A DNA stretch of 64,000 bases, from NCBI GenBank assembly GCA_964421125.1, contig CAYQVD010000003.1, positions 5,779-69,778 on the forward strand. Reading direction: 5' to 3'. Every line of letters starts with the position of its first letter. Within the stretch, counting starts at the first letter, position 1. This DNA comes from an uncultured Bdellovibrionales bacterium. Its GTDB lineage: Bacteria > Patescibacteriota > Minisyncoccia > Moranbacterales > DUUL01. Positions 617-59,868 of the stretch are shown piece after piece. The notes under the pieces are model-generated. The model saw nothing but the letters and a program-made list of their open reading frames with translations. It was not told where the DNA came from and searched no databases. Made by a program: the position numbers and the translations under genes.

Positions 617-944
617 TTTGTAATTTGTTAATTTGGTAAAAAAGTTAGTTTTTTAAAATATTCATTTATGTAAGTAATCTATTACTTACATAGCAATCGG
701 ATTAATGGATTTCTGTCGGAGTTTATGTTCGTGGATGCGGGTGCAGGAATGACAAAGAGAGAGATTTTGAATAATATATTTTTGAGTGTCAGGTCATTCT
801 GATGAGATTTTGGGAGAAAATATGTTATTCAAAATCTTTTTTAGAATGACAAGGGCAGATTAATTGTTTATATAAAAATACAACATACTGTATTTTAGTA
901 ATGTATTATTATGTTATTTAAATTGCTCTACTAACTATCAACTA

Positions 945-975
945 AAATCTATTAACTAAACAATTTGCTCAAATA
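945..975 (+). promoter_or_regulatory. Putative sigma70 promoter (TTGCTC ... TGtGATAAT, extended -10) upstream of the response regulator gene
   Basis: Direct reading of the sequence; hexamer spacing is approximately right. Confidence 0.3.
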
Positions 976-1107
976 AAAAAAGTGTGATAATATGGTGAGT
1001 AAATAAGGGTTTTTTATGCTTAATAATAGCGTGATTAAATACAAGCTTTCTTTATTATTAATAAGTTTGATTTTGCCTGAAATCGCAATTTCAAATATAA
1101 ATAAAAA

Positions 1108-1980
1108 ATGAATAAAATTCTCATCGTCGAAGATGATCCGATGTTATCTGAGATATATCAAAAAAAGTTTTCGCAAGAAGGAAATTTTGAAGTTTTGACA
1201 GCGATTTCAGGTAGTGAAGCTGAGAAGAAAATAAGAAGGGAAAAACCTGATTTAGTGTTATTGGATTTGGTGTTACCAGAAAAGGATGGATTCGAAATTT
1301 TGAAAGATCTTAGAGAAGATTCTAGTCTTGATGATATTAAAATTGTTATTTTTTCAAATCTTTCTCAAGAAGAGGAACAACAAAAAGCTAAGACTCTTGG
1401 GGCGAATGGTTTTATCGCTAAATCTGATTTTACTCCTCAACAAATTGTTTCTGAAGTTAATAAAATTATTGGAGAAGATGATAATAGTCAGAAAAAAACA
1501 GATTCAGAAAAGATGATACAGGAAGACAAAGGGGGAGAAGAAAATAAGGCGGTTAAGGGAAGAAAAACAGTTAAAAATAGTAATATTGCTGTTGATTTAG
1601 GATTTACTCCTAAGATTTTAATCGTTGAAGATGAAGAAGTTTTTTTGGAAGTTTTTGGAATAAAATTAAAAGATTCTGGATTTGAAGTGGATACTGCTTC
1701 GAATGGTGGATGGGGATTGAAACTTGCGGATAAAAATAAATATGATGCAATTTTATTGGATATTGTGATGCCAGTTTTGAATGGCGTTGATTTAATTAAG
1801 AAGCTTCGCAAAAAAGGTGAAAACAAGGAAACACCAGTGATTATTTTATCTGGATCGATTGATGAGCAATCACAAAGAGATGAAGTCTTGAAGGCTGGAG
1901 CAGTTGACGTGTTGATAAAAACTCGTGTAACTCCGAGTCAAGTAGTTGATTGTGTTAAAAGTCATATCAAGAAGCAATAG
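1108..1980 (+). CDS. Response regulator with two CheY-like receiver (REC) domains and no output domain
   Basis: Two copies of the ILIVEDD...LLD...P REC signature (residues 1-120 and ~170-290), separated by a K/E-rich linker. Confidence 0.75.
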   Translation: MNKILIVEDDPMLSEIYQKKFSQEGNFEVLTAISGSEAEKKIRREKPDLVLLDLVLPEKDGFEILKDLREDSSLDDIKIVIFSNLSQEEEQQKAKTLGANGFIAKSDFTPQQIVSEVNKIIGEDDNSQKKTDSEKMIQEDKGGEENKAVKGRKTVKNSNIAVDLGFTPKILIVEDEEVFLEVFGIKLKDSGFEVDTASNGGWGLKLADKNKYDAILLDIVMPVLNGVDLIKKLRKKGENKETPVIILSGSIDEQSQRDEVLKAGAVDVLIKTRVTPSQVVDCVKSHIKKQ

Positions 1981-2061
1981 TGATGTTAAAAGTAGCTTCA
2001 AGGAGCTCCAAATAATACTGGGGAATGGATATTGATTGTTTCTAATAAAAAATGATTTAAA

Positions 2062-2781
2062 ATGTTGCAAGAATATAAAATAAAAACAGAACAATTTGAG
2101 GGACCACTTGATTTGTTGTTGGAATTGATTGAGAAAGAAAAGCTTGATATTACAAGATTGTCTATTGCGACAGTGGCAGATGATTTTTTGAAGTTTATTG
2201 AAAATAATACTGAAATTAATTTGGCAAATTTAAGTGAATTTTTATTGACTGCTTCGCAGTTAATTTTAATTAAATCGAAAGCTCTTTTGCCGCTTTTTGA
2301 ATTTACTCAAGAAGAGGAAGAAGAAATCGTTGATTTAGAAGAGAGGCTTTTGGAGTACAAGAGATTTAAGGATGCTTCTAGTAAGGTTGGAGAATTATTT
2401 TGTTCTTCAATGAAATGTTTTTCCAGAAAAGAAGAAAAAGATATTGATTTCAAGAAGTTTGTTGATCCGAAAATGAACGGAAAAAATTTATTAAATTTAT
2501 ATAAAAGAGTTATTATTAATATTCCTCAAGAGGAAAAAATGATTGAAAGAGTAATGGAAAAGGTTGTAAGTCTTGAAGATAAAATGGTTGAATTGAAAAC
2601 TTCATTAGAAAAGAGGATGAAAGTGGCTTTTGCAGATACAATTAAGAATGCGACTGGGAAGGTTGATGTGATAGTTACTTTTTTGGCGATGCTTGAAATG
2701 GTCAAACAGCGATCTATAGCAGTTGAACAAGCGGATTTATTTGGTGATATTTTATTAACATCAAGAAAACATGTTGAATAA
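2062..2781 (+). CDS. scpA: Segregation and condensation protein A (ScpA kleisin)
   Basis: N-terminal FEGPLDLLLELIEKEKLDITRLSIATVADDF is typical of ScpA; scpB lies immediately downstream. Confidence 0.8.
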   Translation: MLQEYKIKTEQFEGPLDLLLELIEKEKLDITRLSIATVADDFLKFIENNTEINLANLSEFLLTASQLILIKSKALLPLFEFTQEEEEEIVDLEERLLEYKRFKDASSKVGELFCSSMKCFSRKEEKDIDFKKFVDPKMNGKNLLNLYKRVIINIPQEEKMIERVMEKVVSLEDKMVELKTSLEKRMKVAFADTIKNATGKVDVIVTFLAMLEMVKQRSIAVEQADLFGDILLTSRKHVE

Positions 2782-3325
2782 AAATATAAAAGGAGAAATT
2801 GAAGCAATTTTATTTGCCACCGGAGATTCAGTAGAGATTTCTAAAATTGCAAAGTTTTTTAAGATTTCAAAAGAGAGTGTAAAAAAAGAAATAATGAATC
2901 TTGAAAATGATTATTTATCTAAAAAATCTGGATTAATTATTGTGACAAAAGGAAATCGAGTGCAACTTTCAAGTGAGCCTAACTTTGGTGAAGTGGTTAT
3001 GAAGTTTATGAATAAGGAGGTTGGAGAGGCACTTTCGCCAGCTACCTCAGAGGTATTGGCAGTGGTTGCTTACAGAGGACCTCTTACTCGAGCTCAAATT
3101 GAATATATTCGGGGAGTGAATTGTAGTTTTACCTTAAGAAATTTGGCGATGAGAGGATTGGTCGAAAGAAAAGAGAATCCAGATGATTCTCGTTCATATT
3201 TATATGAAATAAGTTTTGATTTTTTAAATAGTCTTGGAATTAAAAAAATTCAAGATTTACCTGAATATGAAGAATTAACTAAAAAACAAGAAGAAACAAT
3301 AAATGAAATCAAGAACGAAACTTAA
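2771..3325 (+). CDS. scpB: Segregation and condensation protein B (ScpB)
   Basis: GEIEAILFATGDSVEISKIAKFF... is a winged-helix ScpB N-terminus; 4-nt overlap with scpA. Confidence 0.75.
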   Translation: MLNKNIKGEIEAILFATGDSVEISKIAKFFKISKESVKKEIMNLENDYLSKKSGLIIVTKGNRVQLSSEPNFGEVVMKFMNKEVGEALSPATSEVLAVVAYRGPLTRAQIEYIRGVNCSFTLRNLAMRGLVERKENPDDSRSYLYEISFDFLNSLGIKKIQDLPEYEELTKKQEETINEIKNET

Positions 3326-4397
3326 TATCGTGGGAATTATTTTTTCCGGAATAGTTTTATGGACTGGTTATTCTATCTATGCTTATTTTACTAATGATAA
3401 AAATGGAGAATTGGCAGTTAATTCAACAAGCCAGATAATTAGAGTTGATAACCAGAGTATTAGTGTTATGGGTGATTCTAATGATAATCAGAATGATGAA
3501 AAAGAAGATGATGAAAATTTTTGTTCTGATGGGATAGTCTCTGGTGAATTATTTAAGGATAATCCCGATGCACCAATAAAAGATTTAGAATACGGTAATC
3601 ATTATGTTGGTGCCCGTTCTGCTATTGCGATTGATGCTGAAACACATACAATTCTTTTCGATCAAAATGCTACAAAGAAAATGGCAATTGCTTCTTTGAC
3701 AAAAATGATGACAGCCGTTTTAGTTGTGGAGAATATTGATGATTTGAGAAATGAGATTGTTACTATTGATGAAGAAACTATTTATACCGATGGGACAATC
3801 ATTGGTTGTCCACGAAGCGGTTATTGTATTTCAAACAGATTAAGAATTGGTGAGAAAATATCTGTATTAAGTCTTTTGGAAGCAATGATAATGAATAGCA
3901 CTAATGATGCTGCTGTTGCCTTAGCTCGACATATTGCTGGAAGCGAGAAAGAGTTTGCGAAAATGATGAACGAAAAAGCCGAAGATCTTGGTTTGGAGGA
4001 TACTCATTTTTGTAATCCATCTGGACTTGATGAAGACAATAATCCAGGGGGGTGCTATTCTACTGCATATGACTTGGCTCGAATTTCTGCTTATTCATTG
4101 CAATATGATACAATTTGGAAGATAATGAGAATGGAGCCAAAGGATATCTATTCAGCGGATGGTCAAATTGTTCATCATATAGTAAATACAGATCGTTTAA
4201 TTGATCAAATGCCAAATTGCATTGGAGGGAAAACTGGATTTACCTATGAAGCAGGAAAGTCTTTGATGACAGCGGCTTATCATCCATATGATAAAGATAA
4301 GAAAGTTATAGCGGTTATTCTGGATGATAATTATAGATGGGTTGATATGAAAGATTTAATGACTTGGGTTTTTAGCGCGTATAATTGGCCTAAATAA
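3303..4397 (+). CDS. D-alanyl-D-alanine carboxypeptidase (peptidase S11, PBP5/6-like)
   Basis: N-terminal TM helix; SxxK (ASLTKMM), SxN (NSTND) and KTG (GGKTGFT) active-site motifs. Confidence 0.7.
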   Translation: MKSRTKLNIVGIIFSGIVLWTGYSIYAYFTNDKNGELAVNSTSQIIRVDNQSISVMGDSNDNQNDEKEDDENFCSDGIVSGELFKDNPDAPIKDLEYGNHYVGARSAIAIDAETHTILFDQNATKKMAIASLTKMMTAVLVVENIDDLRNEIVTIDEETIYTDGTIIGCPRSGYCISNRLRIGEKISVLSLLEAMIMNSTNDAAVALARHIAGSEKEFAKMMNEKAEDLGLEDTHFCNPSGLDEDNNPGGCYSTAYDLARISAYSLQYDTIWKIMRMEPKDIYSADGQIVHHIVNTDRLIDQMPNCIGGKTGFTYEAGKSLMTAAYHPYDKDKKVIAVILDDNYRWVDMKDLMTWVFSAYNWPK

Positions 4398-4403
4398 ATA
4401 AAA

Positions 4404-5510: not shown

Positions 5511-5529
5511 TCTTTATTTATTTTAAATT

Positions 5530-10191: not shown

Positions 10192-10196
10192 TTTAA

Positions 10197-12412: not shown

Positions 12413-12648
12413 TTACTTAACACTTTTTGCATTGAAAATGGCGGGAATATAGTAGTATATTTTTTTGAAGCATCATCAGGAGAAAAGGTGTCTTGGAATG
12501 TAATTAATATATCTTCTCGCAACGCCATCGGAATGGCGAAATCCTCGAAGATACATTAATTACATTCCAAGATGAAAGAAGTTTTGAGACACTCAAAATT
12601 ATATCAGCTATATTTTTAAAAGTGTGAGATTATAAATAAGTTTAAAAA

Positions 12649-24388: not shown

Positions 24389-24407
24389 TTTGAGGATAAG
24401 AGGTTGA

Positions 24408-24477
24408 ACTGTAGGTGATACGTTTTCTCGCAAAACTTCATAGGAATGTCATACTGCTCGAAAATGTATCACCTACA
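24408..24477 (+). repeat. Family B structured repeat, copy B3 (perfect 19-bp terminal inverted repeats ctgtaggtgatacgttttc / gaaaatgtatcacctacag around the conserved core TTTTCTCGCAA...CTCGAAAAT)
   Basis: See the family B finding; other copies at 763-846 (reverse orientation), 12470-12587, 26790-26924 and 31811-31894. Confidence 0.6.
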
Positions 24478-24590
24478 GTTCACTAAGTTTTTAATAAACA
24501 TGGAATAATACCAATGGATTTTCGCTGGAGTTTATCTGATTTGGGCGGGCAGGAATAATAAGAGTATTTCTGATATAATAAAGTAATAAA

Positions 24591-24623
24591 ACTAATGGAT
24601 TCCTGCCTTTGCAGGAATGACAG
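24591..24623 (+). repeat. Family A hairpin repeat, copy A3 (ctaATGGATTCCTGC-cttt-GCAGGAATGACAgg); a degenerate copy A2 lies at 24511-24562
   Basis: See the family A finding; other copies at 666-757, 31096-31161, 36966-36998, 37137-37170, 44880-44946, 52184-52214 and 59795-59858. Confidence 0.6.
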
Positions 24624-24633
24624 GGGTGATTTT

Positions 24634-25566
24634 ATGAAAGAATTAGGTTTAAGGGAGAAAATGTATCCAGCTTCTTGGAAGCAACTAAAAAAAGGCGCTC
24701 AGAATGAGAAAATTGTCCATGCTTTTTTGTTTTGCGGACCAGGATTTACTGGTAAAAATGACATGGCACTTGATTTAGTAGCTGTTCTTAATGGTATTGA
24801 CGTTGAGGCAAATCGGGATAAGGTTTTGAATAATGGATTTCCTGATATTGTAATTATTCGACCTGATGAAGAGATGAAGAAAAAAGAAATTGGAGTTGAT
24901 CAAATTAAGGATGTAATTAAGAAGATTGGATATTATGCCTATGATCAGAAATACAAAGTATTAATTGTTTTTAATGCTGATTTGATGAACAAGTCAGCTG
25001 GAAATAGCCTTCTGAAAACTCTTGAAGAGCCACCAGAAAAAACTATTATTATTCTTATTGCTAATCGAGAGGAGCGAATTTTAACAACTATTCGGTCTCG
25101 ATGTCAGAGAGTTTACTTTGGTCTTAAGAGAAATGAAGAAGTGAAAAATTATCTTAAAGAAAATGAAAGAATTGATTTGCCAGAGGGGTCACTGAATCAA
25201 ATTGTAGAAATTTCTCATGGGAAATATAAGTTAGCAGAGAACTTAGCATTGAGTCCAGATCTATTGGATGAAAAAAGGGAGCGAATTGAAAAGTTTCGAA
25301 AAGCTCTTAAGGGTGGAATCTCGGAGACTTTTGATTTCATTGAACAAGAAACAAAAGATGGAAAGGTTGATAGTGAGGTGCTTGAAGATTGGCTTTATTT
25401 TCTTCATGCTTTTATTAAGGAAAGCATTAAGGAGGATCGGCCGGCTCAAATGGTTGAGAAAGTTTTTGAGATGGAAAAGAGTTTAATAGAAGTTAAAAAT
25501 AAGATAGAAAATAGCAATGCTAGTCCAAGAACTTTGTTAGAGAATTATTTTGTGCAGTTAATTTGA
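24634..25566 (+). CDS. holB: DNA polymerase III delta-prime subunit (start moved to the ATG at 24634; the longer ORF would translate the family A hairpin)
   Basis: AAA+ Walker A-like FLFCGPGFTGKNDMALD and clamp-loader SRC-like LLKTLEEPPEKTIIILIA...TIRSRCQ. Confidence 0.75.
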   Translation: MKELGLREKMYPASWKQLKKGAQNEKIVHAFLFCGPGFTGKNDMALDLVAVLNGIDVEANRDKVLNNGFPDIVIIRPDEEMKKKEIGVDQIKDVIKKIGYYAYDQKYKVLIVFNADLMNKSAGNSLLKTLEEPPEKTIIILIANREERILTTIRSRCQRVYFGLKRNEEVKNYLKENERIDLPEGSLNQIVEISHGKYKLAENLALSPDLLDEKRERIEKFRKALKGGISETFDFIEQETKDGKVDSEVLEDWLYFLHAFIKESIKEDRPAQMVEKVFEMEKSLIEVKNKIENSNASPRTLLENYFVQLI

Positions 25567-26746: not shown

Positions 26747-26949
26747 TGTGAATTTTCAGTTCTTAATTTTCAATTAAGACTAAGATATAGATAACATATT
26801 TTCTCGCAACGCCATCAGAATGGCCTGCCTCGACGGCAAGGCGGGCGAGATCCTCGAAAATACATTCGTTATATTCTAAAATGAAAGAAGTTTTAAGGGT
26901 CTCGAAAATGTATTATTCAAAATTTTATGGTTTTAAATAATGAAATTTT

Positions 26950-30953: not shown

Positions 30954-31253
30954 GTATCTCCTGGGAGACATTTTTTTTCAATGTACTAATTGGTAGTTTA
31001 TTATATAATTGTATTTTAGTCAAAAAGATTTTAATGACGGGAAAGATGATTTGTGGTAAAATGTTTATGTAAAGTGTTGTAAGAATAGTATTAAGACTAA
31101 TGGATTCCTGCTTTGCGCTATTGCTAAAGCTAGGGCGACACACGGTCGTGGGAATGACAAGAATAAGAAACGGGTTTGGTATATTTATAATTTTGAAAAT
31201 TAATTAATTGGAAATTCAATGGAAATTGTGAATTAAAAATTGAAAATTTAACA

Positions 31254-31808: not shown

Positions 31809-31931
31809 AAGATTTTGAATAATATGTTTTCTCCCAAAATCCCATCGGAATGGCCTGACACTCGAAAATATATTATTCAAAATCTTTGGAAACTTTTATT
31901 TAAATATCTAGGTTAGTAATTAATCAAAAAT

Positions 31932-36503: not shown

Positions 36504-37195
36504 AAAAGTGTTGGAGTCTGTTCAAAATATCCATATTCTATTGCAAATTCCATATTTATGCTGTAAATTGTTCAAAAATCGTCAGAATATCACCGATATT
36601 CTTTCTCATTTTTCACAATTTTCGCTATAAATCTGAAATTTTCATAACGAAAGAGAAATTATGAACAGACTCTGGAACATTATTAAATTAATGTTACAAT
36701 ATTAATGATTAATAATCAACTATTTTGTTGTTTTTGTCAAGCTTTTTATATGTATGTATTTTGAAAAAAACAAAACATGTCCATTTTTTTCACTGAATTT
36801 ATATTTGCTTTTGGATGGATAGGTAGTTAAAGATAGTGACTTATTAAGTGGTTGGGTTCTTCTTTTCGATACCATTACGTTCAAAAAATGAACATGCTTT
36901 GTTTTGATGTCTTGGTGTTCAAGAATTAAGAATTGTTATACGTTCTTGGTTTATTTGTCTTTCTCTTAATGGATTCCTGTCTTCGCAGGAATGATAATGT
37001 TTTTGTTTAATAATTTGAAATTGAAAATTATTTTAAAATTAATAATTAATAATTAAAAATTAGTGTTAGGCTATTGCAAAAAATGTTTAGGCAAGGCATA
37101 ATGATTAATGAATGTAGGTATTAATAAAGACTTAAAACTGGATTCCCAATCGAGTTGGGAATGACAAGGATTATAAATATTATTTTAAATAAAAT

Positions 37196-43837: not shown

Positions 43838-44120
43838 GTAATCGACAATTAACTTTTGACAATTTACAATTAACGACAAATTCCCGTTTTTAGAAGTTGC
43901 GGGAAAGATTTTATATCTAACCCTCTTTGGTTCTTCTTTAGCCTAAAAGAGTTGTTTTTTAAATTGAGATATCAAACATGTTAAATTATATATTCAACTT
44001 GCGAACAAGTCAATAGGGAGGTAGAATAGAGGGGTAATTTTCATTTCTCAATTTCCAATTTTCATTGAATTTTCAATTAGTTAATTTTCAATGAGTTTTG
44101 AATAGATTGAATACAAGGGA

Positions 44121-44861: not shown

Positions 44862-44969
44862 GGAGTAAATTTGAGGTTTTATGTAAGTAAAGTATTACTT
44901 ACATAGAAATTGGACTAATGGATTCCTGCTTTCGCAGGAATGACAATTTAAAGAATAATTTCTTTATAT

Positions 44970-48498: not shown

Positions 48499-48612
48499 GA
48501 ATAGCTTCGCAACCTGCCTGCCAGTAGACAGGTTTTCATTTATCAATTTCCAATTTCCAATAATAAAACAAGCCTCTGGCTTGTTTTATTTAATTTCATT
48601 AAAAAGAAGGGA

Positions 48613-49068: not shown

Positions 49069-51990
49069 ATGAATTCAGTGAAAACAGCGACTCCGAAATA
49101 TAACTTTAAATCCATTGAGAAGAAATGGCAGAAATATTGGGAGGAAAACAAGACTAATCAAGTTGATTTAGAAAAGGCTGAAAATCCTTTCTATAATTTG
49201 ATGATGTTCCCATATCCTTCAGCAGAAGGTTTGCATGTTGGAAATATGTATGCTTTTACTGGAGCAGATGTCTATGGACGTTTCAAAAGACTTCAAGGGT
49301 ATGATGTTTTTGAGCCAATTGGATTAGATGGATTTGGTATTCACAGTGAAAACTATGCAATTAAGATTGGAGAACATATCAATGAATTCTCCAAGCGAAG
49401 TGAAAAAAGATTTTATGAGCAATTAAGCTTGGTCGGGAATATGTATGATTGGTCTCGAACCGTTGAGACTTATAAAACTGATTATTATAAATGGACTCAA
49501 TGGCTTTTCTTAAAAATGTTTGAAAAAGGGTTGGCTTATCAAAAGAAAGCCAAGGTTAATTGGTGTCCTTCTTGTAAGACAGTGCTTTCAGATGAACAAG
49601 TAGTCCAGGGAAAATGTGAGCGATGTGATAGTCAGGTTGAGAAAAAGGAACTAAAACAATGGTTTTTCAAGATTACTGATTATGCAGATCGGCTTCTTGA
49701 AAATTCTCAAAAAGAAGATTTTGATTGGCCAGCAGATGTAAAATTAAATCAACAAAATTGGATTGGAAAATCTGAGGGAGCCTCGATCAAATTTCCAATT
49801 TCCAATTTCCAATTTCCAAATAAATCTCAAAATTCAAATTCTCAAAAAAAGGATAAGTTTATTGAAGCTTTTACTACTAGACCAGACACTTTATTTGGGG
49901 CGACTTATATGGTGGTTGCACCAGAGCATGAAATTCTACAAAATCAAAAATCAAAAATCAAAAATCAAAAAGAGGTGTTTGAGTATGTTAAGAAATCTTT
50001 AAATAAATCGGAGCAAGAAAGAAAGGAAGAAGAAAAAACAAAGACAGGAGTTGAGTTAAAAGGAGTCAAGGCAATTAATCCAGCAACTAAGGAGGAAATT
50101 CCAGTTTGGGTGGCTGACTATGTTTTGGCTGGTTATGGAACGGGAGCGATTATGGCGGTTCCAGCGCATGATGAACGTGATTTTGAATTTGCGAAAAAGT
50201 TTGGATTGGAAATTAAAGATGTTGTTGTTCCATACATTAAAGATAATCCAAGAGATGATAAGGAAACTGAAGAAAGGGATGCTGTTGTTGGAGTTGTTAA
50301 AGATCCCAAAACTAATAAATATCTTTGTTTGAAATGGAATAAAACAGAATGGCAATCTTTTCCATCTGGAGGGACTGACGGAGATGAAATTGTGGAGGCT
50401 GGAAAGAGAGAAATAAAAGAAGAAACTGGTTATATTGATTTGGAATTTAAAAAAGAACTTGGGAGTCCAATCTTTGCAGAATTCTATCGACCCCATAAAG
50501 ATTCAAATGTAATTGCAAAATTTAGATATCTATTATTTGAACTTAATAGCGATGAACAAGTTGAAATTGAAAAAAAGGAAATGGAAATACATGAGCCTTT
50601 GTGGATTGATGAAGAAAAGATAGAATCTTTTATTAATGTTTCTAATCAGAAAATTGTTTGGGAGCGATTGACTCAAGGAATAAAATCTTTTTGTGGAGAA
50701 GGAGTCAGTATTGATTCAGATTTTTTGGATGGACTGAAAACTGCTGAAGCAAAAACTAAAATGATTGAATGGCTTGAAGAAAATAAAGTTGGTAAAAAGG
50801 CTGTTGATTATAAGTTGCGAGACTGGTGTGTTTCAAGGCAAAGATATTGGGGACCACCAATTCCAATTATTCATTGCAAAAATTGTGGAACGGTGCCAGT
50901 TCCAGAAGAAGATCTGCCAGTGGAGTTGCCACCAATGGATGATTTTTTACCAGAAGGAAAAGGAAAAAGTCCACTTGCGAAGAATGAAGAATTTGTGAAA
51001 GTGAAATGCCCAAAGTGTGGAACGGATGCAGAAAGAGAAACTGATGTTTCTGATCCATTTGTGGATTCATCTTGGTACTTTTTTCGATATCCTTCAACTG
51101 AAATTGAAGATAAGCCTTTTGATAAAGAGCGTACTAAAAAATGGTTACCAGTGGATAGCTATATTGGAGGCAAGGAACATACTGTTCTTCATTTGCTTTA
51201 TTCTCGTTTTGTGACGATGGTTTTGCACGATTTGGACTATATTGATTTTGATGAGCCTTACAAAAGATTTTTTGGGCATGGGCTTATCACCAAAGATGGA
51301 GCAAAAATGTCAAAATCAAAAGGAAATGTAGTGAATCCAGATGAGATGATTGAGAAATATGGAGCAGATACAGTGCGATTATATTTGAGATTCTTGGGAG
51401 ATTTTTCTCAAGGAGGAGATTGGCGAGATAGTGGTGCTGAAGGAATTTTCAAGTTTGTGAAAAAACTTTGGGCAACTTTCTTTGAACTTGAAAATGTTGA
51501 AGGAAATGGGGTTGAAAAAACTAATATGATTGATAAAACAATTAAAGTGATTGGTGAAGATATCGAAAGACTTTCATTTAATACTGCTGTTGCAAGATTA
51601 ATGGAGTTTGTGAATTGGATTAGAGACAATATTTCAGAGTTTGATCAATCTCAGGCAAAAAGAGTTCAAGAAGTTTTGGCGCTTGTCAGCGCTCCAATGA
51701 TGCCACATATTGCAGAAGAATTTTGGAATCAAATTGGAAACGAGGATTCAGTGTTCAATTCAAAGTGGCCGGAGTTTAATGAAAATAATATTTTGGATGA
51801 TGAAATTGAACTTGTGGTTCAAGTGAATGGAAAAGTCAGAGATCGAATTCAGTGTCCAAGAGATGTTTCCGAAAAAGATGCAAAGAAATTGGCGACAGAA
51901 AGTTTGAAAATTAAATCTTACACTGAAGGAAAAGAGATAATAAAAACAATCTATGTTCCAGGAAAGCTTGTTAATATTGTTGCCAAGTAG
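49069..51990 (+). CDS. leuS: Leucyl-tRNA synthetase with an inserted Nudix hydrolase domain (973 aa)
   Basis: PYPSAEGLHVGN (HIGH variant), ZN-1 CPSCKT...CERCD, editing-domain blocks TTRPDTLFGATYMVVAPEH and GTGAIMAVPAHDERD, KMSKSKGN. Extra ~140-aa Nudix fold (..SFPSGGTDGDEIVEAGKREIKEETGY..) between the editing domain and the RLRDW block. Confidence 0.9.
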   Translation: MNSVKTATPKYNFKSIEKKWQKYWEENKTNQVDLEKAENPFYNLMMFPYPSAEGLHVGNMYAFTGADVYGRFKRLQGYDVFEPIGLDGFGIHSENYAIKIGEHINEFSKRSEKRFYEQLSLVGNMYDWSRTVETYKTDYYKWTQWLFLKMFEKGLAYQKKAKVNWCPSCKTVLSDEQVVQGKCERCDSQVEKKELKQWFFKITDYADRLLENSQKEDFDWPADVKLNQQNWIGKSEGASIKFPISNFQFPNKSQNSNSQKKDKFIEAFTTRPDTLFGATYMVVAPEHEILQNQKSKIKNQKEVFEYVKKSLNKSEQERKEEEKTKTGVELKGVKAINPATKEEIPVWVADYVLAGYGTGAIMAVPAHDERDFEFAKKFGLEIKDVVVPYIKDNPRDDKETEERDAVVGVVKDPKTNKYLCLKWNKTEWQSFPSGGTDGDEIVEAGKREIKEETGYIDLEFKKELGSPIFAEFYRPHKDSNVIAKFRYLLFELNSDEQVEIEKKEMEIHEPLWIDEEKIESFINVSNQKIVWERLTQGIKSFCGEGVSIDSDFLDGLKTAEAKTKMIEWLEENKVGKKAVDYKLRDWCVSRQRYWGPPIPIIHCKNCGTVPVPEEDLPVELPPMDDFLPEGKGKSPLAKNEEFVKVKCPKCGTDAERETDVSDPFVDSSWYFFRYPSTEIEDKPFDKERTKKWLPVDSYIGGKEHTVLHLLYSRFVTMVLHDLDYIDFDEPYKRFFGHGLITKDGAKMSKSKGNVVNPDEMIEKYGADTVRLYLRFLGDFSQGGDWRDSGAEGIFKFVKKLWATFFELENVEGNGVEKTNMIDKTIKVIGEDIERLSFNTAVARLMEFVNWIRDNISEFDQSQAKRVQEVLALVSAPMMPHIAEEFWNQIGNEDSVFNSKWPEFNENNILDDEIELVVQVNGKVRDRIQCPRDVSEKDAKKLATESLKIKSYTEGKEIIKTIYVPGKLVNIVAK

Positions 51991-52183
51991 CGACAATTTT
52001 CAGTTATCAATTTCCAATTTCCATTAAATTTTCAATGAAAGAATTTTCAATAATTTATGTTGTTGTCGTGGCGGGTTCAAGTGTCCTCGTTTGAATCCTA
52101 ATAGGTCTTCTTTTATAATATTAAGAATTAAATGGCTCAGGTGTGAACGTCTGAATTCGCGTGATTAAAAAAGCTATAAAAAG

Positions 52184-52214
52184 ACTGGATTCCCGCCTAC
52201 GCGGGAATGACAAG
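52184..52214 (+). repeat. Family A hairpin repeat, copy A8 (ctGGATTCCCGC-ctac-GCGGGAATGACAAG). Its stem carries compensatory T-to-C / A-to-G changes. Nested between 19-bp GC-rich inverted repeats at 52071-52089 and 52230-52250
   Basis: Compare with copies A3/A7 (ATTCCTGC/GCAGGAAT) and A6 (ATTCCCA/TGGGAAT). Confidence 0.55.
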
Positions 52215-55442: not shown

Positions 55443-56314
55443 TGAATTTATCTTTTCGAAAATTTTTAGGAACTTTTGTAGCAGTTCTTTTCTTTGTTTT
55501 TTTAACTCAATTTGTTAATAGTGCAACATTTACTGACAATTTTCCTTTGAAAGTTGTTTTTTTAGATATTGGTCAAGGTGATTCAATTTTAATAAATTAT
55601 CTTGATCGTCATCAGATTCTGATTGATGGAGGGCCTGATGGTAAAAAGTTAATGTATGAACTTGGAAAAGTGATGCCGAAAAATGATAAGGAAATAGAGG
55701 TTGTCATTGCAACTCATCCAGATTGGGATCATTTTGGAGGATTTATTGATTTAATTGATTATTATTCTGTGAAGTCATTTTTAACTAGTGATATTGAGAA
55801 TGAAAAGACAAGTTTTCAGAAATTGATAAAAAAAATAGAAGACAAAAATATTAAAATTAATTCACCAGAAGTTGGATCAAGAATTGATATTGGTGAGTAT
55901 TTAGATATTGAATTTTTAGCTCCGGATAGTGGAAATGATTTTAAAGATGGAAATGATAATTCAATTGTGACAAGAGTTGATTTTGGAAAAAACTCCTTTC
56001 TTTTCACTGGTGACATTGGAAAGAAGCCTGAGGCTTATTTAGTAAAAGAATATGGCAATTTATTAGATGTTGATTGGTTGAAAGTGGCTCATCATGGTTC
56101 GAAAAATTCCAGTTCTGATATTTTTTTGGAAAAAGTATCGCCTGAATTTGCAGTTATTTCAGCGGGGAAAGATAATCGTTATGGTCATCCAGCAGTAGAA
56201 GCGCTTGAGCGACTTAAGAATGTCGATGCGGATGTTTTAAGGACTGATGAGATAGAGTCAATTGTTGTGGGTTGTGAGACACCAAAGAAGAAGTCTTGCG
56301 AAGTTCTAGATTGA
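55442..56314 (+). CDS. ComEC-type metallo-beta-lactamase domain protein (standalone, secreted or membrane-anchored)
   Basis: VVFLDIGQGDSILI, HPDWDHFGG, VAHHGSKNSS are ComEC C-terminal MBL-domain motifs; start codon overlaps the murJ stop. Confidence 0.75.
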   Translation: MNLSFRKFLGTFVAVLFFVFLTQFVNSATFTDNFPLKVVFLDIGQGDSILINYLDRHQILIDGGPDGKKLMYELGKVMPKNDKEIEVVIATHPDWDHFGGFIDLIDYYSVKSFLTSDIENEKTSFQKLIKKIEDKNIKINSPEVGSRIDIGEYLDIEFLAPDSGNDFKDGNDNSIVTRVDFGKNSFLFTGDIGKKPEAYLVKEYGNLLDVDWLKVAHHGSKNSSSDIFLEKVSPEFAVISAGKDNRYGHPAVEALERLKNVDADVLRTDEIESIVVGCETPKKKSCEVLD

Positions 56315-56420
56315 CTTTAATACTATTTTGACTTAGAATTACTTATTAAGTTCTTTTAATGGTTAACGGGGAAAAATGACCTTTTTTGAAAAGGAGGTTT
56401 TTATGAAAATTGGTGAATGC

Positions 56421-57471
56421 GGCATATAGACCCAAATAGGACCTACTATGTTAAAATAACCCAGTATTTAATTAGGTTATTTAACATTCAAACGTATGAA
56501 CAACAAAAAATGTCCTTTTTGTAACTCTCCAGAATGTATTAAAAAAGGATTTCAACAAGGACACCAGAGATGGCAATGTAAAAAATGTAAAACAAAATTT
56601 CAAGCTAACAAAAAAGTTCCACTAATTAAAGAGGAACTTTTTTGTTTGTATGTTTTTAATAAGCAAACATTAAGAGAATTATCAGTAGAACATCATTTTA
56701 AAACTCAAAATCTTCAGTCTTTCTTTGATTCTGTAGTGTTACCAAAAAAGAAACACTGTCCCAGAGAACTCTCCCTAGCAGTAGATACAACTTTCTTTGA
56801 AGAATTTGGAGTTGTTGTATTTAGAGACCAAGAACGTAAAGAAAATCTTTGGTGGAAGTTTGTTGAATCAGAAAGACTTATACATTATGAAGAAGGAATG
56901 ATTTATCTTGAAAGATTAGGTTATACATTCAGGTCGGTTACAGGAGATGGCTTACCTGGTTTGCCCAGTGTTTTCGTTGATATTCAGTTTCAGTATTGTC
57001 ATTTTCATGCCCGTAAGAACATTACAAAATATATTACAAGAAATCCAAAAACTAATGCAGGAATAGAGTTAAAGTTTATCATGGATAGTTTAAAGAGTTA
57101 TACTCATAACTCTTTTTTAAAAGATATGTCTTATTGGGAAGAAAAGTATAGTTATTTTTTAAAAGAAAAAACATATCATCCTGGAGGAAATTGGTCGTAT
57201 ACTCATGGAAGACTAAGAAGTGCTATTAGAAGTATGAAAAGAATGTCAGGATATCTTTTTACTTATCAGAGGTGTAATTTCTTTATGCCAGTAACAACAA
57301 ATACTTTAGAGGGTCACTTCGCTCATCTTAAAGTTAGAGTCGGAGTACATAGAGGTATTTCATTAAAAAGAAAACAAAGAATCATCTATTTGGTTCTTCT
57401 AAATTCCTCTGCTTCATATGAAAAAGATATGCATAAAAAGTTGTTTTAGGTCCTATTTGGGTCTATATGCC
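56421..57471 (+). mobile_element. IS1-family-like insertion sequence (1051 bp) with 24-bp perfect terminal inverted repeats (GGCATATAGACCCAAATAGGACCT) and 8-bp target-site duplication GTGAATGC (56413-56420 and 57472-57479)
   Basis: IRL 56421-56444 is the exact reverse complement of IRR 57448-57471; identical 8-bp direct repeats flank it; one internal transposase ORF. Confidence 0.8.
56496..57449 (+). CDS. IS1-family transposase (fused InsA-like zinc finger + DDE domain)
   Basis: N-terminal CPFCNSPECIKKGFQQGHQRWQCKKCKTKF parallels the IS1 InsA zinc finger (CPxC...HQRYxCxxC). Confidence 0.7.
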   Translation: MNNKKCPFCNSPECIKKGFQQGHQRWQCKKCKTKFQANKKVPLIKEELFCLYVFNKQTLRELSVEHHFKTQNLQSFFDSVVLPKKKHCPRELSLAVDTTFFEEFGVVVFRDQERKENLWWKFVESERLIHYEEGMIYLERLGYTFRSVTGDGLPGLPSVFVDIQFQYCHFHARKNITKYITRNPKTNAGIELKFIMDSLKSYTHNSFLKDMSYWEEKYSYFLKEKTYHPGGNWSYTHGRLRSAIRSMKRMSGYLFTYQRCNFFMPVTTNTLEGHFAHLKVRVGVHRGISLKRKQRIIYLVLLNSSASYEKDMHKKLF

Positions 57472-57491
57472 GTGAATGCTATATTTATATT

Positions 57492-57716
57492 ATGGAAAAT
57501 AGAAATGGAGAATGGCTTGAAAAATTTCGAAAAACACTTTGGGGTGCAAGAAGGGATATTATCTGGCTTGAGGAGAATCTTGGTTTTGCTAACGTAATCA
57601 TCTTTCCTGTCCGTAAAAAGTTCCAGGAAGCAGGTCTTTTCCTAGCAAGAAAGATGTGCGAAGGAAAAATTACAATAAAGGAATTATTGGAGAAATCAAA
57701 GAAATATGCCGTTTAA
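57492..57716 (+). pseudogene. 3-prime portion of a small gene interrupted by the IS. The intact gene would read M-K-I-G-E-C|Y-I-Y-I-M-E-N-R..., with its first 6 codons at 56403-56420
   Basis: Removing the IS plus one TSD copy joins ATGAAAATTGGTGAATGC (with SD aaaggagg) in frame to TATATTTATATTATGGAAAAT... (84-aa ORF). Confidence 0.5.
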
Positions 57717-57803
57717 TTTTTTTATCGTTATTTTAAATGAAAAGATTCCCAAGTTTTATTAAAACAAGGGAGTCTTTTGTTTTTTTAGGGAATGTGGAAA
57801 AAT

Positions 57804-57831
57804 TTGCCATAATTTTATTTCTTGCTATAAT
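57804..57831 (+). promoter_or_regulatory. Sigma70-type promoter TTGCCA-16-TGcTATAAT upstream of a ~200-nt structured leader of the adenylate-kinase-like gene
   Basis: Consensus hexamers with extended -10. The leader contains 16-bp perfect inverted repeats at 57862-57877 and 58003-58018. Confidence 0.45.
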
Positions 57832-58044
57832 GATGTCAATCAACTCCTCTTGGGGGTTTAGCAACTGTCTAAGATTTCCGTATTCGACTGCAATTTCCAA
57901 ATTTAAGCTGCAAGAAATTCATCATTCGTCAACATATTTCCGATATGTTTCCTCATGCTTCATTTCTTTCGCTTTAAATTTGAAAATTTTGCAATGAAAG
58001 AAAAATCTTAGACAGTTGCTTATTAATTATCTTAAAATCAAAAC

Positions 58045-59124
58045 ATGAAATTTGAAAAAGAATTTCCTCTATTTAAAACTAAAATAGAAGGGGTAGATAA
58101 AAAATTTAATTTATCGGATGTTCAAGATAGAAAAAAATATTTTGAAATTAAAGCTGGAGAAGAGATTAAAAAATTAAAAAAATATTTTGAAGAAGGAAAT
58201 ACTTTTATTGCTTATCTTCTAGGAAAGAAGAATGCAGGAAAGGGGACTTATACGAAACTTTTCATGGAATTATTCGGAAAAGAAAATATTGTGCATATTT
58301 CCATTGGAGATATCGTGCGTGATGTTCATGCTGAAATGAAAGATGACGAAAAAAGAAAAGAATTGCTTGATTATTTACATGAAAATTATCGAGGATATAT
58401 TACTCCAGAAAAGGCAATTGATGCTCTTCTGGGAAAGGATCAAAAAACACTTCTTCCCAATGAGTTTATTATGGCTTTGGCAAAAAGAGAAATTGATCAA
58501 GCTGGTAAAAAGATTGTTTTTTTGGATGGATTTCCGAGAAGTTTAGATCAAGTTTCTTACGCTTTGTTTTTTAAGGAGCTTGTAGATTATAGAAATGACC
58601 CAGATATTTTTGTTGCTATTGATATTCCTGAAGCGGTCATTGATGAAAGAATGAAGTATAGGGTTGTTTGTCCAAAATGTCATACACCAAGAAATTTAAA
58701 GCTTTTTACTACTGAAAAAGTTGAGCACAACGAAGATGAGAATAAATTTGAACTCATTTGTGATAATCCTGAATGTGATAACATTAAAATGACTTCTAAA
58801 GAGGGAGACAATTTGGGAATTGAATCTATTAGAGATAGACTTGAACTTGATGATATTTTAATTAATAAAATATTTTCTTTGCATGGCGTTTCTAGAATTT
58901 TACTTCGTAATGCCGTTCCGGTTGATAAGGCAGTTGAATATTTAGACGATTATGAAATAACCCCAGAGTATTATTATGAAAAAAATGATGATACAGGGGA
59001 AATAAAAACATTAGAAAGACCTTTTATTGTTAAAGATGACGAAGGAGTTGAAGTTTATAGTTTATTGGCTCCTCCAGTAGTGCTTTCTCTTATAAAACAT
59101 TTAGTCAAAACGCTCAAACTTTAA
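58045..59124 (+). CDS. Adenylate kinase-family protein with N- and C-terminal extensions (359 aa) and a zinc-type LID
   Basis: P-loop LLGKKNAGKGTYTKLFMELFG, NMP-binding HISIGDIVR, LDGFPRSLDQ, LID CPKCH...CDNPECD. Confidence 0.6.
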   Translation: MKFEKEFPLFKTKIEGVDKKFNLSDVQDRKKYFEIKAGEEIKKLKKYFEEGNTFIAYLLGKKNAGKGTYTKLFMELFGKENIVHISIGDIVRDVHAEMKDDEKRKELLDYLHENYRGYITPEKAIDALLGKDQKTLLPNEFIMALAKREIDQAGKKIVFLDGFPRSLDQVSYALFFKELVDYRNDPDIFVAIDIPEAVIDERMKYRVVCPKCHTPRNLKLFTTEKVEHNEDENKFELICDNPECDNIKMTSKEGDNLGIESIRDRLELDDILINKIFSLHGVSRILLRNAVPVDKAVEYLDDYEITPEYYYEKNDDTGEIKTLERPFIVKDDEGVEVYSLLAPPVVLSLIKHLVKTLKL

Positions 59125-59138
59125 TTTTTAAAAAAGTA

Positions 59139-59167
59139 TTGACAAATAGCTATGAATTCTGTAGAAT
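59139..59167 (+). promoter_or_regulatory. Sigma70-type promoter TTGACA-17-TAGAAT upstream of greA
   Basis: Consensus -35 and 17-bp spacer. Confidence 0.5.
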
Positions 59168-59205
59168 CGTCACACTCTAAAAAATAAGCATTGTAAAAAT
59201 TTAAA

Positions 59206-59661
59206 ATGAAATATTTAACTAAAGAAGGTTTCGATAGGATTGGAAAAGAGCTTGAGGACAGAAAAAGAAACTTGAGACAGACAATTGCCATTTCAATCAA
59301 GGAAGCGAAAGAACAAGGTGATTTGAGCGAAAATGCTGAATATTCAGAAGCTAAGAGACAACAACGAGAGAATGAATCAAGAATTATTTATCTTGAAAAT
59401 GCTATTAGAACCTCAAAAGTTGTTAGTAAGACGAAATCAAATGGTCATGTTGAAGTTGGCTCAGAAGTTCTTGTAAAGACTAATGGAAAGAAGATGACTT
59501 TTCATATTGTTGGTTCAAATGAAGCAGATCCAGCTCAAGGAAAGATTTCTAATGAATCTCCGATTGGAGAAGCATTTCTTGGAGCTCAAAAAGGTGAAGC
59601 AATTGAAATAGTTCTTCCAAATAAGAAAAAAATGGTTTATGATATTTTGGAAGTGAATTAA
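59206..59661 (+). CDS. greA: Transcription elongation factor GreA
   Basis: N-terminal coiled-coil (LTKEGFDRIGKELEDRKRNLRQ) and C-terminal FKBP-like domain; followed by a terminator at 59685-59708. Confidence 0.85.
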   Translation: MKYLTKEGFDRIGKELEDRKRNLRQTIAISIKEAKEQGDLSENAEYSEAKRQQRENESRIIYLENAIRTSKVVSKTKSNGHVEVGSEVLVKTNGKKMTFHIVGSNEADPAQGKISNESPIGEAFLGAQKGEAIEIVLPNKKKMVYDILEVN

Positions 59662-59868
59662 ATCTAGAATTTTTTTATATGAAAACAGCCTTAATGGGCT
59701 GTTTTTTGGCCTTTTTGAGACAATTATTAAAAAACACTTGTTAATATTGCAGCAAAAAAGTTTACACTTTTGCTACAATGTTAACAGAGTACCTTAACTG
59801 GATTCCTAATCTGCTTCGTTAAAGCTTCAGCGAGGCGAGTCAAGTTGGGAATGACAAGTGAGGGGTCT

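What the first reader, a model, noticed from the sequence alone, without database searches (positions are those of the whole stretch)
666..59858. Family A: dispersed upstream hairpin repeat (..TAATGGATTCCTGC-loop-GCAGGAATGACAAG) with compensatory stem changes
There are at least nine copies, all in + orientation and 20-350 bp upstream of gene starts: 666-757 (response regulator), 24511-24562 and 24591-24623 (holB), 31096-31161 (yjjX-like), 36966-36998 and 37137-37170 (aspS), 44880-44946 (LutB-like), 52184-52214 (SufD-like), 59795-59858 (abutting promoter P3 of hrcA).

The flanks (c)TAATGGATTCC and GGAATGACAAG are conserved. The 8-bp stem varies compensatorily: ATTCCTGC/GCAGGAAT, ATTCCCGC/GCGGGAAT, ATTCCCA/TGGGAAT. 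Loops range from 4 nt to ~45 nt.

Copies at 666 and 44880 also share an upstream perfect palindrome TGTAAGTAA-N2-3-ATTACTTACA. The 3-prime end ATGACAAG resembles the -35 box of the local promoter class (cTTGACAAg).

Compensatory stem changes imply selection on structure: an RNA leader element, a protein-binding DNA hairpin, or a tiny mobile element carrying an outward promoter.
Basis: seen in the sequence. Interest (0 to 1): 0.6.

Follow-up and report, generated by a model that had tools for sequence, protein, structure and literature searches.

The report
Ssn-type DNA hairpin repeats in CPR bacterium
The dispersed hairpin repeat is real, but it is this uncultured bacterium's version of an already described repeat (Neisseria NTS/dRS3, "Ssn-related motif") that small GIY-YIG nucleases recognise on single-stranded DNA, so it is a new host for a known element.

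Summary
Nine copies lie at the stated coordinates, all on the + strand and all intergenic. A loose motif pattern finds 9 copies against 1.5 expected by chance.

Read on the − strand, the repeat is CTTGTCATTCC(Y)GC-loop-GC(R)GGAATCCAKTAG. That is the Neisseria NTS (CGTCATTCCCGCGMAVGCGGGAATCYRG, core dRS3), also called the Ssn-related motif (SRM). Chenal et al. 2025 showed it is the ssDNA hairpin bound and cut by the 94-aa GIY-YIG nuclease SsnA. The nucleotides critical for SsnA are conserved here: GTC 5′ of the stem and C 3′ of it.

The same hairpin occurs in more than 240 unrelated viral and metagenome contigs (GC 30–71%). Stem covariation across them is strong: 56 doubly changed cells against 7.3 in shuffles. 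In 11 fetched contigs the motif lies in the same stretch as an ssn-like gene, directly abutting it in several. These include the window's own variant, TAATGGATTCCTGC…GCAGGAATGACA.

The host is a Patescibacteria (CPR) bacterium. The aspS loci of 20 related genomes lack the repeat. No ssn gene lies in the 72 kb available, so the partner nuclease in this genome is inferred.

The promoter and mobile-element ideas are not supported. An RNA role is not excluded but is unlikely. Verdict: new member of a known kind, modest interest.

The parts
703..756 (-). Family A copy, long form. NTS/SRM sense is on the − strand. Left arm degenerate (ATTTCTGT), right arm GCAGGAATGACAAAG.
   Evidence: It does not fold into the family hairpin (z −0.4).
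24512..24562 (-). Family A copy, long form of the same subtype as 703. Degenerate: ATTTTCGC … GCAGGAATAATAAG.
   Evidence: No family hairpin forms. It shares the internal GGAGTTTAT with the 703 copy.
24593..24624 (-). Family A short copy: TAATGGATTCCTGC-CTTT-GCAGGAATGACAGG. It lies 10 nt before the likely holB start at 24634.
   Evidence: DNA hairpin −7.9 kcal/mol, z −3.8.
31098..31161 (-). Family A long copy: left arm of the TAATGG/CCTGC type, right arm GTGGGAATGACAAG, 40-nt interior with two small hairpins.
   Evidence: The closing stem is kept, DNA z −2.1. Divergent intergenic region.
36967..36998 (-). Family A short copy: TAATGGATTCCTGT-CTTC-GCAGGAATGATAAT.
   Evidence: Hairpin z −3.8.
37138..37168 (-). 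Family A short copy: CTGGATTCCCAA-TCGAG-TTGGGAATGACAAG, 5-nt loop, 28 nt before the aspS start.
   Evidence: Hairpin z −2.7.
44916..44947 (-). Family A short copy: TAATGGATTCCTGC-TTTC-GCAGGAATGACAAT.
   Evidence: Hairpin z −5.6.
52185..52214 (-). Family A short copy. Its reverse complement, TGTCATTCCCGCGTAGGCGGGAATCCAG, matches the published SRM search pattern and 26 of 28 NTS consensus positions. It also contains an exact dRS3 (ATTCCC-N8-GGGAAT).
   Evidence: only SRM pattern match, 0.1 expected.. Hairpin z −4.2.
59798..59858 (-). Family A long copy: CTGGATTCCTAA … TTGGGAATGACAAG, with a 39-nt interior. It lies 9 nt before a TTGACA box upstream of hrcA.
   Evidence: The closing stem forms only with a T·G pair (RNA z −2.3; DNA z 0.0).
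669..690 (.). Perfect palindrome TGTAAGTAAT-CT-ATTACTTACA, 12 nt 5′ (on the + strand) of the 703 copy. An accessory module shared with the 44916 copy.
   Evidence: D11, 88% over 51 nt.
44882..44903 (.). Second copy of the palindrome, TGTAAGTAA-AGTA-TTACTTACA, 12 nt 5′ of the 44916 copy.
843..853 (-). Orphan right half-site AGAATGACAAG, just after the Family B element at 762-837. Possibly a duplicated Family A 3′ end.

Best explanation
Family A is this genome's version of the Ssn-related motif (SRM). In Neisseria the same element is called NTS, and its palindromic core is dRS3. It is a ~30-34-nt, oriented, intergenic repeat.

As single-stranded DNA it folds into an 8-bp hairpin (ATTCCNGC/GCNGGAAT). 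The loop reads YTNC on the + strand and GNAR on the − strand. Conserved unpaired flanks surround the stem.

The functional strand, as defined in the literature, reads GTCATTCC…GGAATCC. Here that is the − strand. In the characterised systems a ~95-aa single-domain GIY-YIG nuclease (SsnA/Ssn, cd10448) binds that strand as ssDNA with nanomolar affinity and cuts a few nucleotides 5′ of it. It does not act on dsDNA, on RNA or on the complementary strand.

Shown here:
- Near-identity of sequence with NTS/SRM, including the nucleotides critical for SsnA binding and cleavage.
- Hairpin potential, enrichment, intergenic placement and a single orientation.
- Family-wide stem covariation.
- Ssn-like genes in the same fetched stretch as the motif, directly abutting the window's own sequence variant in other organisms.

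Inferred:
- This Patescibacteria genome encodes, or recently encoded, a cognate Ssn nuclease outside the 72 kb available.
- The copies are its recognition sites.
- As in Neisseria, they influence the fate of single-stranded DNA, for example incoming transforming DNA. The window starts with comEC.
- The copies multiplied within this lineage by the still unknown process that generates hundreds of SRMs in other genomes.
For: - Sequence identity. The reverse complement of the 52185-52212 copy matches the published SRM pattern and 26 of 28 NTS positions.
- Critical nucleotides. All five short copies keep GTC (in the 36967 copy ATC) 5′ of the stem and C 3′ of it. The paper identifies these as critical for cleavage and binding (one search compared).
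- Breadth. The hairpin TGGATTCC-N10-GGAATGACA occurs in more than 120 viral contigs, and TAATGGATTCC-N10-GGAATGA in more than 120 metagenome contigs. GC ranges from 30 to 71%.
- Covariation in the unconstrained N10 region. The sixth stem pair is CG 101, UA 22, GC 18, AU 2. There are 56 doubly changed cells against 7.3 ± 2.3 in shuffles, 0 of 500. In 262 copies Watson-Crick pairing is 95% against 52.5% expected.
- Association with ssn. Single-domain GIY-YIG ORFs of 97-122 aa lie in 11 motif-bearing loci, directly abutting the motif in several. Three loci show the bracket NTS-sense → ssn → reverse NTS. L205, L162 and L153 carry the window's exact variant, TAATGGATTCCTGC…GCAGGAATGACA. The L205 protein belongs to a GIY-YIG (PF01541) family with at least 7,973 members at E ≤ 1e-10.
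- Window copies: 9 against 1.5 expected, 9 of 9 intergenic, 9 of 9 in one orientation.
- Lineage specificity. The shared flanks (C)TAATGG and GACAAG indicate amplification within this lineage. The aspS loci of 20 related Patescibacteria lack the repeat.
- Context. The paper notes that SRM-rich genomes are enriched in symbionts, which fits an episymbiotic CPR lineage (own knowledge).
Against: - No ssn-like gene was found in the window plus 8 kb of extension, either by tblastn or by a profile HMM. Pfam scans of 30 ORFs found no GIY-YIG domain.
- About 330 kb from relatives contains no Ssn. There is only one non-Ssn-like small GIY-YIG protein, in L250.
- Only 1 of 9 copies satisfies the published SRM search pattern. 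The others carry T-A instead of C-G at the covarying pair.
- The paper reports that changing the palindrome while preserving the hairpin abolished Neisseria SsnA activity. Activity on these variants therefore depends on a co-adapted enzyme.
- Ssn homologs are described as mainly found in Pseudomonadati.
- Three of the four long forms probably no longer form the hairpin.
Confidence: 0.7

Rival explanations
1. RNA-level cis element. The hairpin is transcribed as part of 5′ leaders or intercistronic regions of + strand genes. It acts as an RNA stem-loop, for example as an RNase barrier, a stabiliser or an attenuator, as proposed for some REP elements.
For: - All 9 copies are co-oriented with the downstream + strand genes.
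- Nearly all non-Watson-Crick stem positions in the window are T·G on the + strand, about 8 against 1 C·A, from reading the sequences. These would be G·U pairs in + strand RNA.
- The 59798 copy closes its stem only as RNA, z −2.3, while the − strand RNA does not fold.
Against: - The T·G excess is what C→T pressure on a strand with GC skew +0.3 would give.
- Across 262 copies elsewhere the mismatch types are symmetric: 9 G·T-type against 12 C·A-type.
- Orientation relative to flanking genes is mixed in other genomes.
- No Rfam family matches, even at E ≤ 1.
- The conserved unpaired flanks coincide with nucleotides needed for an ssDNA nuclease, and SsnA does not bind the RNA form.
- Most copies have no U-tract, so they are not intrinsic terminators.
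Confidence: 0.1
2. A miniature mobile element that carries an outward-facing promoter. Its ATGACAAG end would serve as a −35 box that drives the downstream gene.
For: - ATGACA matches TTGACA at 5 of 6 positions.
- The copies lie 10-356 bp before + strand gene starts.
- One copy (747) has TAATAT at 17 nt.
Against: - Only 1 of 9 copies has an acceptable −10 at 16-18 nt, equal to the 11% background.
- Promoter-like sites number 50 against 49.4 in shuffles.
- GGAATGAC is conserved in this family in genomes of every GC content, where it corresponds to the GTC needed for Ssn cleavage.
- There are no target-site duplications, no terminal repeats other than the hairpin itself, and no flank homology.
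- The 24593 copy ends 10 nt before the start codon.
Confidence: 0.04
3. A double-stranded DNA site for a recombinase or regulator. For example, it could be the attachment or target site of an IS110/Piv-type recombinase (Neisseria filamentous phages integrate into dRS3), or an operator for a dimeric transcription factor.
For: - dRS3 is the documented insertion site of the meningococcal MDA/Nf prophage (PMC1797815).
- The core is an 8-bp inverted repeat with a 4-nt spacer, which is an operator-like geometry.
Against: - Operators conserve sequence rather than complementarity. Here the arms co-vary.
- The conserved flanks are asymmetric and every copy has the same polarity.
- No recombinase, transposase or phage genes were found among the 30 ORFs scanned.
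- Being a recombinase target would be an additional use of the SRM, not an alternative origin.
Confidence: 0.08
4. Orphan relics. The copies are SRMs left from a past Ssn-SRM invasion. The nuclease gene has been lost, and the copies are now decaying and functionless.
For: - No ssn gene lies in 72 kb.
- Four of 9 copies are degenerate or interrupted.
- The paper reports that 19% of genomes with more than 200 SRMs have no detectable SsnA homolog.
Against: - Five copies are still perfect or near-perfect hairpins with intact critical flanks in a 33% GC genome under strong mutational skew.
- The strict single orientation suggests ongoing or recent selection.
- Only about 7% of a genome of roughly 1 Mb was examined. 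The genome size is an assumption.
Confidence: 0.08

Closest known systems
NTS / Ssn-related motif (SRM), the ssDNA hairpin target of SsnA-family GIY-YIG nucleases (Chenal et al., Nat Commun 2025, PMC11893778)
   Same: - Same core sequence and architecture: GTCATTCC-NGC-loop-GCN-GGAATCC.
- Same critical flank nucleotides.
- Same 8-bp stem and 4-nt loop (GNAR on the NTS strand).
- Oriented, multi-copy and almost exclusively intergenic.
- One copy matches the published search pattern exactly.
- The window's variant abuts ssn genes in other contigs.
   Different: - The host is a Patescibacteria/CPR bacterium with 33% GC.
- The dominant variant has T-A instead of C-G at the sixth stem pair, so it escapes the published pattern.
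- Lineage-specific flanks (C)TAATGG and GACAAG.
- Strict single-strand polarity, 9 of 9.
- Long-interior forms.
- No ssn gene has yet been seen in this genome.
dRS3 repeats and neisserial intergenic mosaic elements (NIMEs) of Neisseria (PMC1797815; PMC2212043)
   Same: - The ATTCCC-N8-GGGAAT inverted repeat is present exactly in the 52185 copy.
- Copies occur singly or as pairs separated by short spacers (24512/24593, 36967/37138), like small dRS3-RS-dRS3 units.
- They sit among other intergenic repeat families.
   Different: - Most copies here are ATTCCT…AGGAAT and fail the dRS3 definition.
- There are no long arrays.
- There is no association with surface-protein genes.
- NIMEs were described as specific to Neisseria.
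REP/BIME elements with RAYT (IS200/IS605-like) transposases
   Same: - Short, oriented, intergenic imperfect palindromes.
- They form ssDNA hairpins recognised by a small dedicated nuclease whose gene is flanked by the repeats.
- Proposed domestication of an IS-like unit. The paper itself draws this analogy.
   Different: - Different enzyme fold: GIY-YIG rather than HUH/Y1.
- No GTAG-type head in the repeat.
- No RAYT gene among the ORFs scanned.

Membership tests
NTS / Ssn-related motif (SRM) repeats | Sequence matches the NTS consensus CGTCATTCCCGCGMAVGCGGGAATCYRG or the degenerate SRM pattern HGTCWYN(0-2)YYVSBRHN(0-5)WNVSBRGN(0-2)RNCYNB | tested here: inconclusive
   One of 9 copies (52185-52212, − strand) matches the SRM pattern, against 0.1 expected, and 26 of 28 NTS positions. 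The other short copies fail only because the covarying sixth stem pair is T-A. That state is found in about 15% of copies elsewhere, including copies that abut ssn genes.
NTS / Ssn-related motif (SRM) repeats | Hairpin-forming semi-palindrome with oriented, non-palindromic conserved flanks: GTC 5′ of the stem (cleavage) and C 3′ of the stem (binding) | tested here: met
   The five short copies fold with z −2.7 to −5.6. On the − strand, all nine copies have GTC or ATC before ATTCC and C after GGAAT, or after the degenerate left-arm equivalent (one search compared).
NTS / Ssn-related motif (SRM) repeats | Multi-copy, enriched over chance and rarely inside genes | tested here: met
   Nine copies against 1.48 ± 1.36 expected. 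All are intergenic in a window that is about 85% coding.
NTS / Ssn-related motif (SRM) repeats | A cd10448-type single-domain GIY-YIG (ssn) gene in the same genome, typically flanked by the repeats | not testable with these tools
   None was found in the window plus the L123 extension, 72 kb in total (Pfam). The rest of the genome could not be retrieved. The species is absent from the genome collection, where the best AspS identity is 78%.
NTS / Ssn-related motif (SRM) repeats | Strand-specific binding and cleavage of the ssDNA form by the cognate Ssn nuclease | not testable with these tools
   This is a biochemical property. It has been shown for Neisseria and Wolbachia homologs only.
dRS3 / NIME (Neisseria) | Exact 20-bp ATTCCC-N8-GGGAAT | tested here: not met
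   Only the 52187 copy fits. The 37140 copy has N9. The others have ATTCCT…AGGAAT or degenerate arms.
REP / RAYT | REP palindrome with a conserved GTAG-type head, plus a RAYT (Y1 transposase) gene flanked by REPs | tested here: not met
   The copies have no such head. No Y1 transposase was found among the 30 ORFs scanned with Pfam.
MITE (miniature inverted-repeat transposable element) | Terminal inverted repeats bounding an internal segment, flanked by target-site duplications | tested here: not met
   Alignments of 70-nt flanks show no homology beyond the ~34-nt core and no direct repeats at the ends.
Intrinsic terminator | GC-rich hairpin followed directly by a T/U tract | tested here: not met
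   The hairpin is followed by GACAAG. In the 24.3-38 kb region scanned, only two copies were flagged as terminator-like, one of them on the opposite strand.
Any Rfam RNA family | Covariance-model match | tested here: not met
   Family A gave no match at the gathering score or at E ≤ 1.

The most novel reading that the evidence does not exclude
SRM hairpins are strand-locked in strongly strand-asymmetric genomes. In this CPR window, all nine copies put the Ssn-cleavable strand on the C-rich strand, which is the leading-strand template and the transcribed strand. None puts it on the strand exposed as ssDNA during lagging-strand synthesis or in transcription bubbles.

The same polarity appears in 32 of 45 other contigs with |GC skew| > 0.1. 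If this is real, Ssn nucleases threaten the host's own transient ssDNA, and selection polarises their sites. That would be a self-avoidance rule, and it would reveal the in vivo substrate of this new nuclease family. It would do so in a phylum thought to depend on DNA uptake.
Probability: 0.15. Interest if true: 0.6.

Novelty: new member of a known kind. Interest (0 to 1): 0.3.

Why it matters
The finding places an Ssn-type hairpin repeat at roughly one copy per 7 kb in a Patescibacteria (CPR) genome. That is outside the mainly Pseudomonadati range described for the system. It also fits the reported enrichment of these repeats in symbionts.

Practical value:
- These repeats should be masked or annotated in CPR MAGs. 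They create spurious ORF starts, as at the holB start (24595 against 24634), and probably cause assembly breaks.
- The published SRM search pattern misses the T-A stem variant, which is common.

If the strand polarity proves to be general, it would point to the natural substrate of Ssn nucleases.

Tried and rejected
- Outward promoter. Tested by spacing and −10 scoring and by a consensus scan. No signal above background.
- Terminator. Rejected because there is no T tract.
- Known RNA family. Rfam at the gathering score and at E ≤ 1 found only a tRNA and chance hits.
- ssn gene in the window. tblastn with four Ssn-like queries, a profile HMM over all ORFs of at least 40 aa, and Pfam on 30 ORFs all found nothing.
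- Extending the contig. Only 8 kb was gained on the 3′ side (L123) and none on the 5′ side. Other samples carry the same strain at 99.96-100% identity, so there is no insertion polymorphism to exploit.
- Orthologous comparison. The aspS loci of 20 Patescibacteria have neither the repeat nor conserved synteny upstream.
- Looking for CPR contigs among low-GC metagenome hits. Those with ssn are Flavobacteria-like, with LptB, TatC and T9SS-type neighbours and Flavobacteriaceae top hits. L243, L233 and L140 were not convincingly CPR.
- Strand asymmetry of mismatches as a test of which strand folds. Symmetric in the wide sample. The asymmetry in the window is confounded by mutational skew.
- Supplementary tables of the Ssn paper. 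Not held.
- Hammerhead idea for the neighbouring Family B element (CTGATGAG in the 762 copy). Rejected because the motif is not conserved in the other copies.

Full report
**Observation**

The repeat is real. GGAATGACAAG with at most one mismatch occurs 10 times on the + strand, against 1.65 expected. TAATGGATTCC occurs 7 times, against 1.69 expected. Reading the sequence confirms nine copies at the stated places.

There are five short copies, each with an 8-bp stem and a 4-5-nt loop, at 24593, 36967, 37138, 44916 and 52185. There are four long copies, whose two half-sites are 35-45 nt apart, at 703, 24512, 31098 and 59798.

A loose pattern (GGATTYY-N4-70-GGAATRA) finds 9 copies on the + strand and none on the − strand. 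Dinucleotide shuffles give 1.48 ± 1.36. All copies are intergenic in a window that is about 85% coding and has 51 of 57 genes on the + strand.

The short copies fold as DNA hairpins with z-scores from −2.7 to −5.6. Of the long copies, only 31098 keeps the closing stem as DNA. The 59798 copy needs a T·G pair. The 703 and 24512 copies have degenerate left arms and do not form the family hairpin.

Homology between copies is limited to about 34 nt: (C)TAATGGATTCC … GGAATGACAAG. The exception is a 22-nt perfect palindrome upstream of two copies, with a degenerate third.

**What it is**

Read on the − strand, the repeat is CTTGTCATTCC(Y)GC-loop-GC(R)GGAATCCAKTAG. This is the Neisseria Transformation Sequence, CGTCATTCCCGCGMAVGCGGGAATCYRG. 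Its palindromic core is the long-known dRS3 repeat, ATTCCC-N8-GGGAAT. Chenal et al. 2025 generalised it as the 'Ssn-related motif' (SRM) (PMC11893778).

The − strand of the 52185-52212 copy matches their degenerate SRM pattern, with 0.1 matches expected by chance. It also matches 26 of 28 NTS positions.

That paper shows that SsnA, a 94-aa single-domain GIY-YIG protein, binds the NTS only as single-stranded DNA and cuts a few nucleotides upstream. It does not act on dsDNA, on RNA or on the reverse strand. The C immediately 3′ of the palindrome is the most important base for binding. The three bases 5′ of the palindrome (GTC) matter most for cleavage.

Those are exactly the flank positions conserved in Family A: TGGATTCC and GGAATGAC on the + strand.

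**Evidence from other sequences**

So did a scan of metagenome contigs for TAATGGATTCC-N10-GGAATGA. The hits come from DNA of 30-71% GC.

The ten central bases were left free in those scans, so they give an unbiased test of pairing:

- In 262 distinct copies, the sixth stem pair is Watson-Crick in 95%, against 52.5% expected from column composition. All four pair types occur.
- On a 148-sequence alignment, 56 cells carry changes on both sides, against 7.3 ± 2.3 in shuffles. None of 500 shuffles reached the observed value, and slid registers collapse to 32-58% paired.
- The loop is conserved as YTNC.

In 11 of the fetched motif-bearing loci a 97-122-aa GIY-YIG ORF lies in the same stretch as a motif, directly abutting it in several. 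Three loci show the arrangement NTS-sense → gene → reverse NTS. Three of the 11 (L153, L162, L205) carry exactly the window's variant, TAATGGATTCCTGC…GCAGGAATGACA. Where neighbouring genes and protein hits were examined (L162, L205), these loci are Flavobacteria-like. The L205 protein belongs to a PF01541 family with thousands of members. So the T-A stem variant that escapes the published pattern is a genuine Ssn-associated form.

**Host**

The window has 33% GC and a GC skew of about +0.3, with nearly all genes on one strand. Its AspS is 72-78% identical to AspS from Patescibacteria: Moranbacteria and Falkowbacteria MAGs, a marine SAG, and Minisyncoccus.

The aspS loci of twenty such relatives, about 330 kb in total, contain no Family A copy and no Ssn-like gene. 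The repeat is therefore a lineage-specific expansion.

Contigs from five other samples carry the same strain at 99.96-100% identity.

- Promoter. ATGACA is one mismatch from TTGACA. But only 1 of 9 copies has an acceptable −10 at 16-18 nt, which equals the 11% background. Promoter-like sites are no more frequent than in shuffles. The GAC is conserved in this family in all genomes for a different, documented reason.
- Mobile element. There are no target duplications and no termini beyond the hairpin.
- RNA leader. No Rfam family matches. Orientation relative to genes is mixed in other genomes.
- The RNA idea is not excluded, because the window's stem mismatches are almost all T·G on the + strand, which would be compatible with G·U pairs. 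However, C→T pressure on this G/T-rich strand also explains that excess. The wider family shows no such asymmetry.

**Orientation**

All nine copies place the reverse of the NTS on the G-rich strand, which is the leading and coding strand. The Ssn-cleavable strand is then the leading-strand template and the transcribed strand. It is not the strand exposed during lagging-strand synthesis.

Across all fetched loci there is no overall bias (126 of 264). Among loci with |GC skew| > 0.1 the same polarity holds in 32 loci against 13, and in 15 of the 16 most skewed. These loci are not independent, and gene direction is confounded with skew. I record this as a lead, not a result.

**What is missing**

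No ssn gene is present in the 72 kb I could read. The rest of the genome could not be retrieved. The partner nuclease is therefore inferred. So is any role in handling incoming ssDNA, although the window does open with comEC. The paper itself reports that 19% of SRM-rich genomes lack a detectable SsnA homolog.

**Verdict**

The element is the known NTS/dRS3/SRM repeat, here in a new host phylum and as a common but under-described stem variant. It is a new member of a known kind, of modest interest.

Noticed in passing
window 762-837, 12491-12572, 24405-24482, 26785-26930, 31809-31886: A second intergenic repeat family ('Family B'). Elements are ~78-82 nt, with 21-28-nt inverted arms that differ between copies but stay complementary. 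They surround a conserved core, TTTTCTCGCAA(C)GCCATCGGAATGGC…CTCGAAAA. The 762 copy is inverted relative to the 31809 copy and shares its arms. No Rfam match at E ≤ 1. Two copies sit directly beside Family A copies.
   Followed up: partly
window 746-757 and 843-854: The Family B element at 762-837 is bracketed by GGAATGACAAAG and AGAATGACAAGG. This looks like a duplication of the Family A 3′ end on insertion and would explain the 'orphan' half-site at 843.
   Followed up: no
window 669-690 and 44882-44903 (degenerate version about 31066-31095): A perfect 22-nt palindrome, TGTAAGTAAT-CT-ATTACTTACA, lies 12 nt 5′ of two Family A copies. It is absent from all other loci fetched by that point apart from two contigs of the same region (325 of 327 loci without a match). 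Its function is unknown.
   Followed up: partly
window 24595 versus 24634: The longest holB ORF starts at the ATG inside the repeat (TAATGGATTCC). The likely true start is the ATG at 24634, which is preceded by GGGGTGA. The repeat therefore creates a spurious N-terminal extension, as seen for ssn ORFs in other contigs (for example the 'SFPRRRESS' and 'CHSCESRNP' peptides).
   Followed up: partly
window 24.5-59.8 kb; L123: Family A sites are spaced 5.9-7.9 kb apart from 24.5 to 59.8 kb. None occurs in 0.8-24.5 kb or in the 8 kb beyond the window end. This may be chance.
   Followed up: no
L089, L162, L202 and others: Ssn-like genes are bracketed in the fixed arrangement NTS-sense → ssn → reverse NTS, with the upstream copy 7-17 nt from the start codon or overlapping it. 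This is the IS-like layout noted in the literature.
   Followed up: partly
viral and metagenome loci with |GC skew| > 0.1: The reverse of the NTS lies on the G-rich strand in 32 loci against 13, and in 15 of the 16 most skewed. This is the same polarity as in the window. The loci are partly redundant, and gene direction is confounded with skew.
   Followed up: partly
window 49069-51990 and 60759-61625: LeuRS carries an inserted NUDIX domain, and the GrpE protein has an N-terminal NUDIX domain. These are unusual fusions.
   Followed up: no
window 26753-26783, 44036-44100, 48533-48563, 49790-49854, 51995-52059: AT-rich intergenic repeats of the AATTTCCAATTTCC type lie downstream of several genes (families D1/D2).
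   Followed up: no
window 36514-36672: A large imperfect inverted repeat (78-nt arms, 71% complementary, 3-nt spacer) lies in the divergent TrmB-aspS intergenic region that also holds two Family A copies.
   Followed up: no
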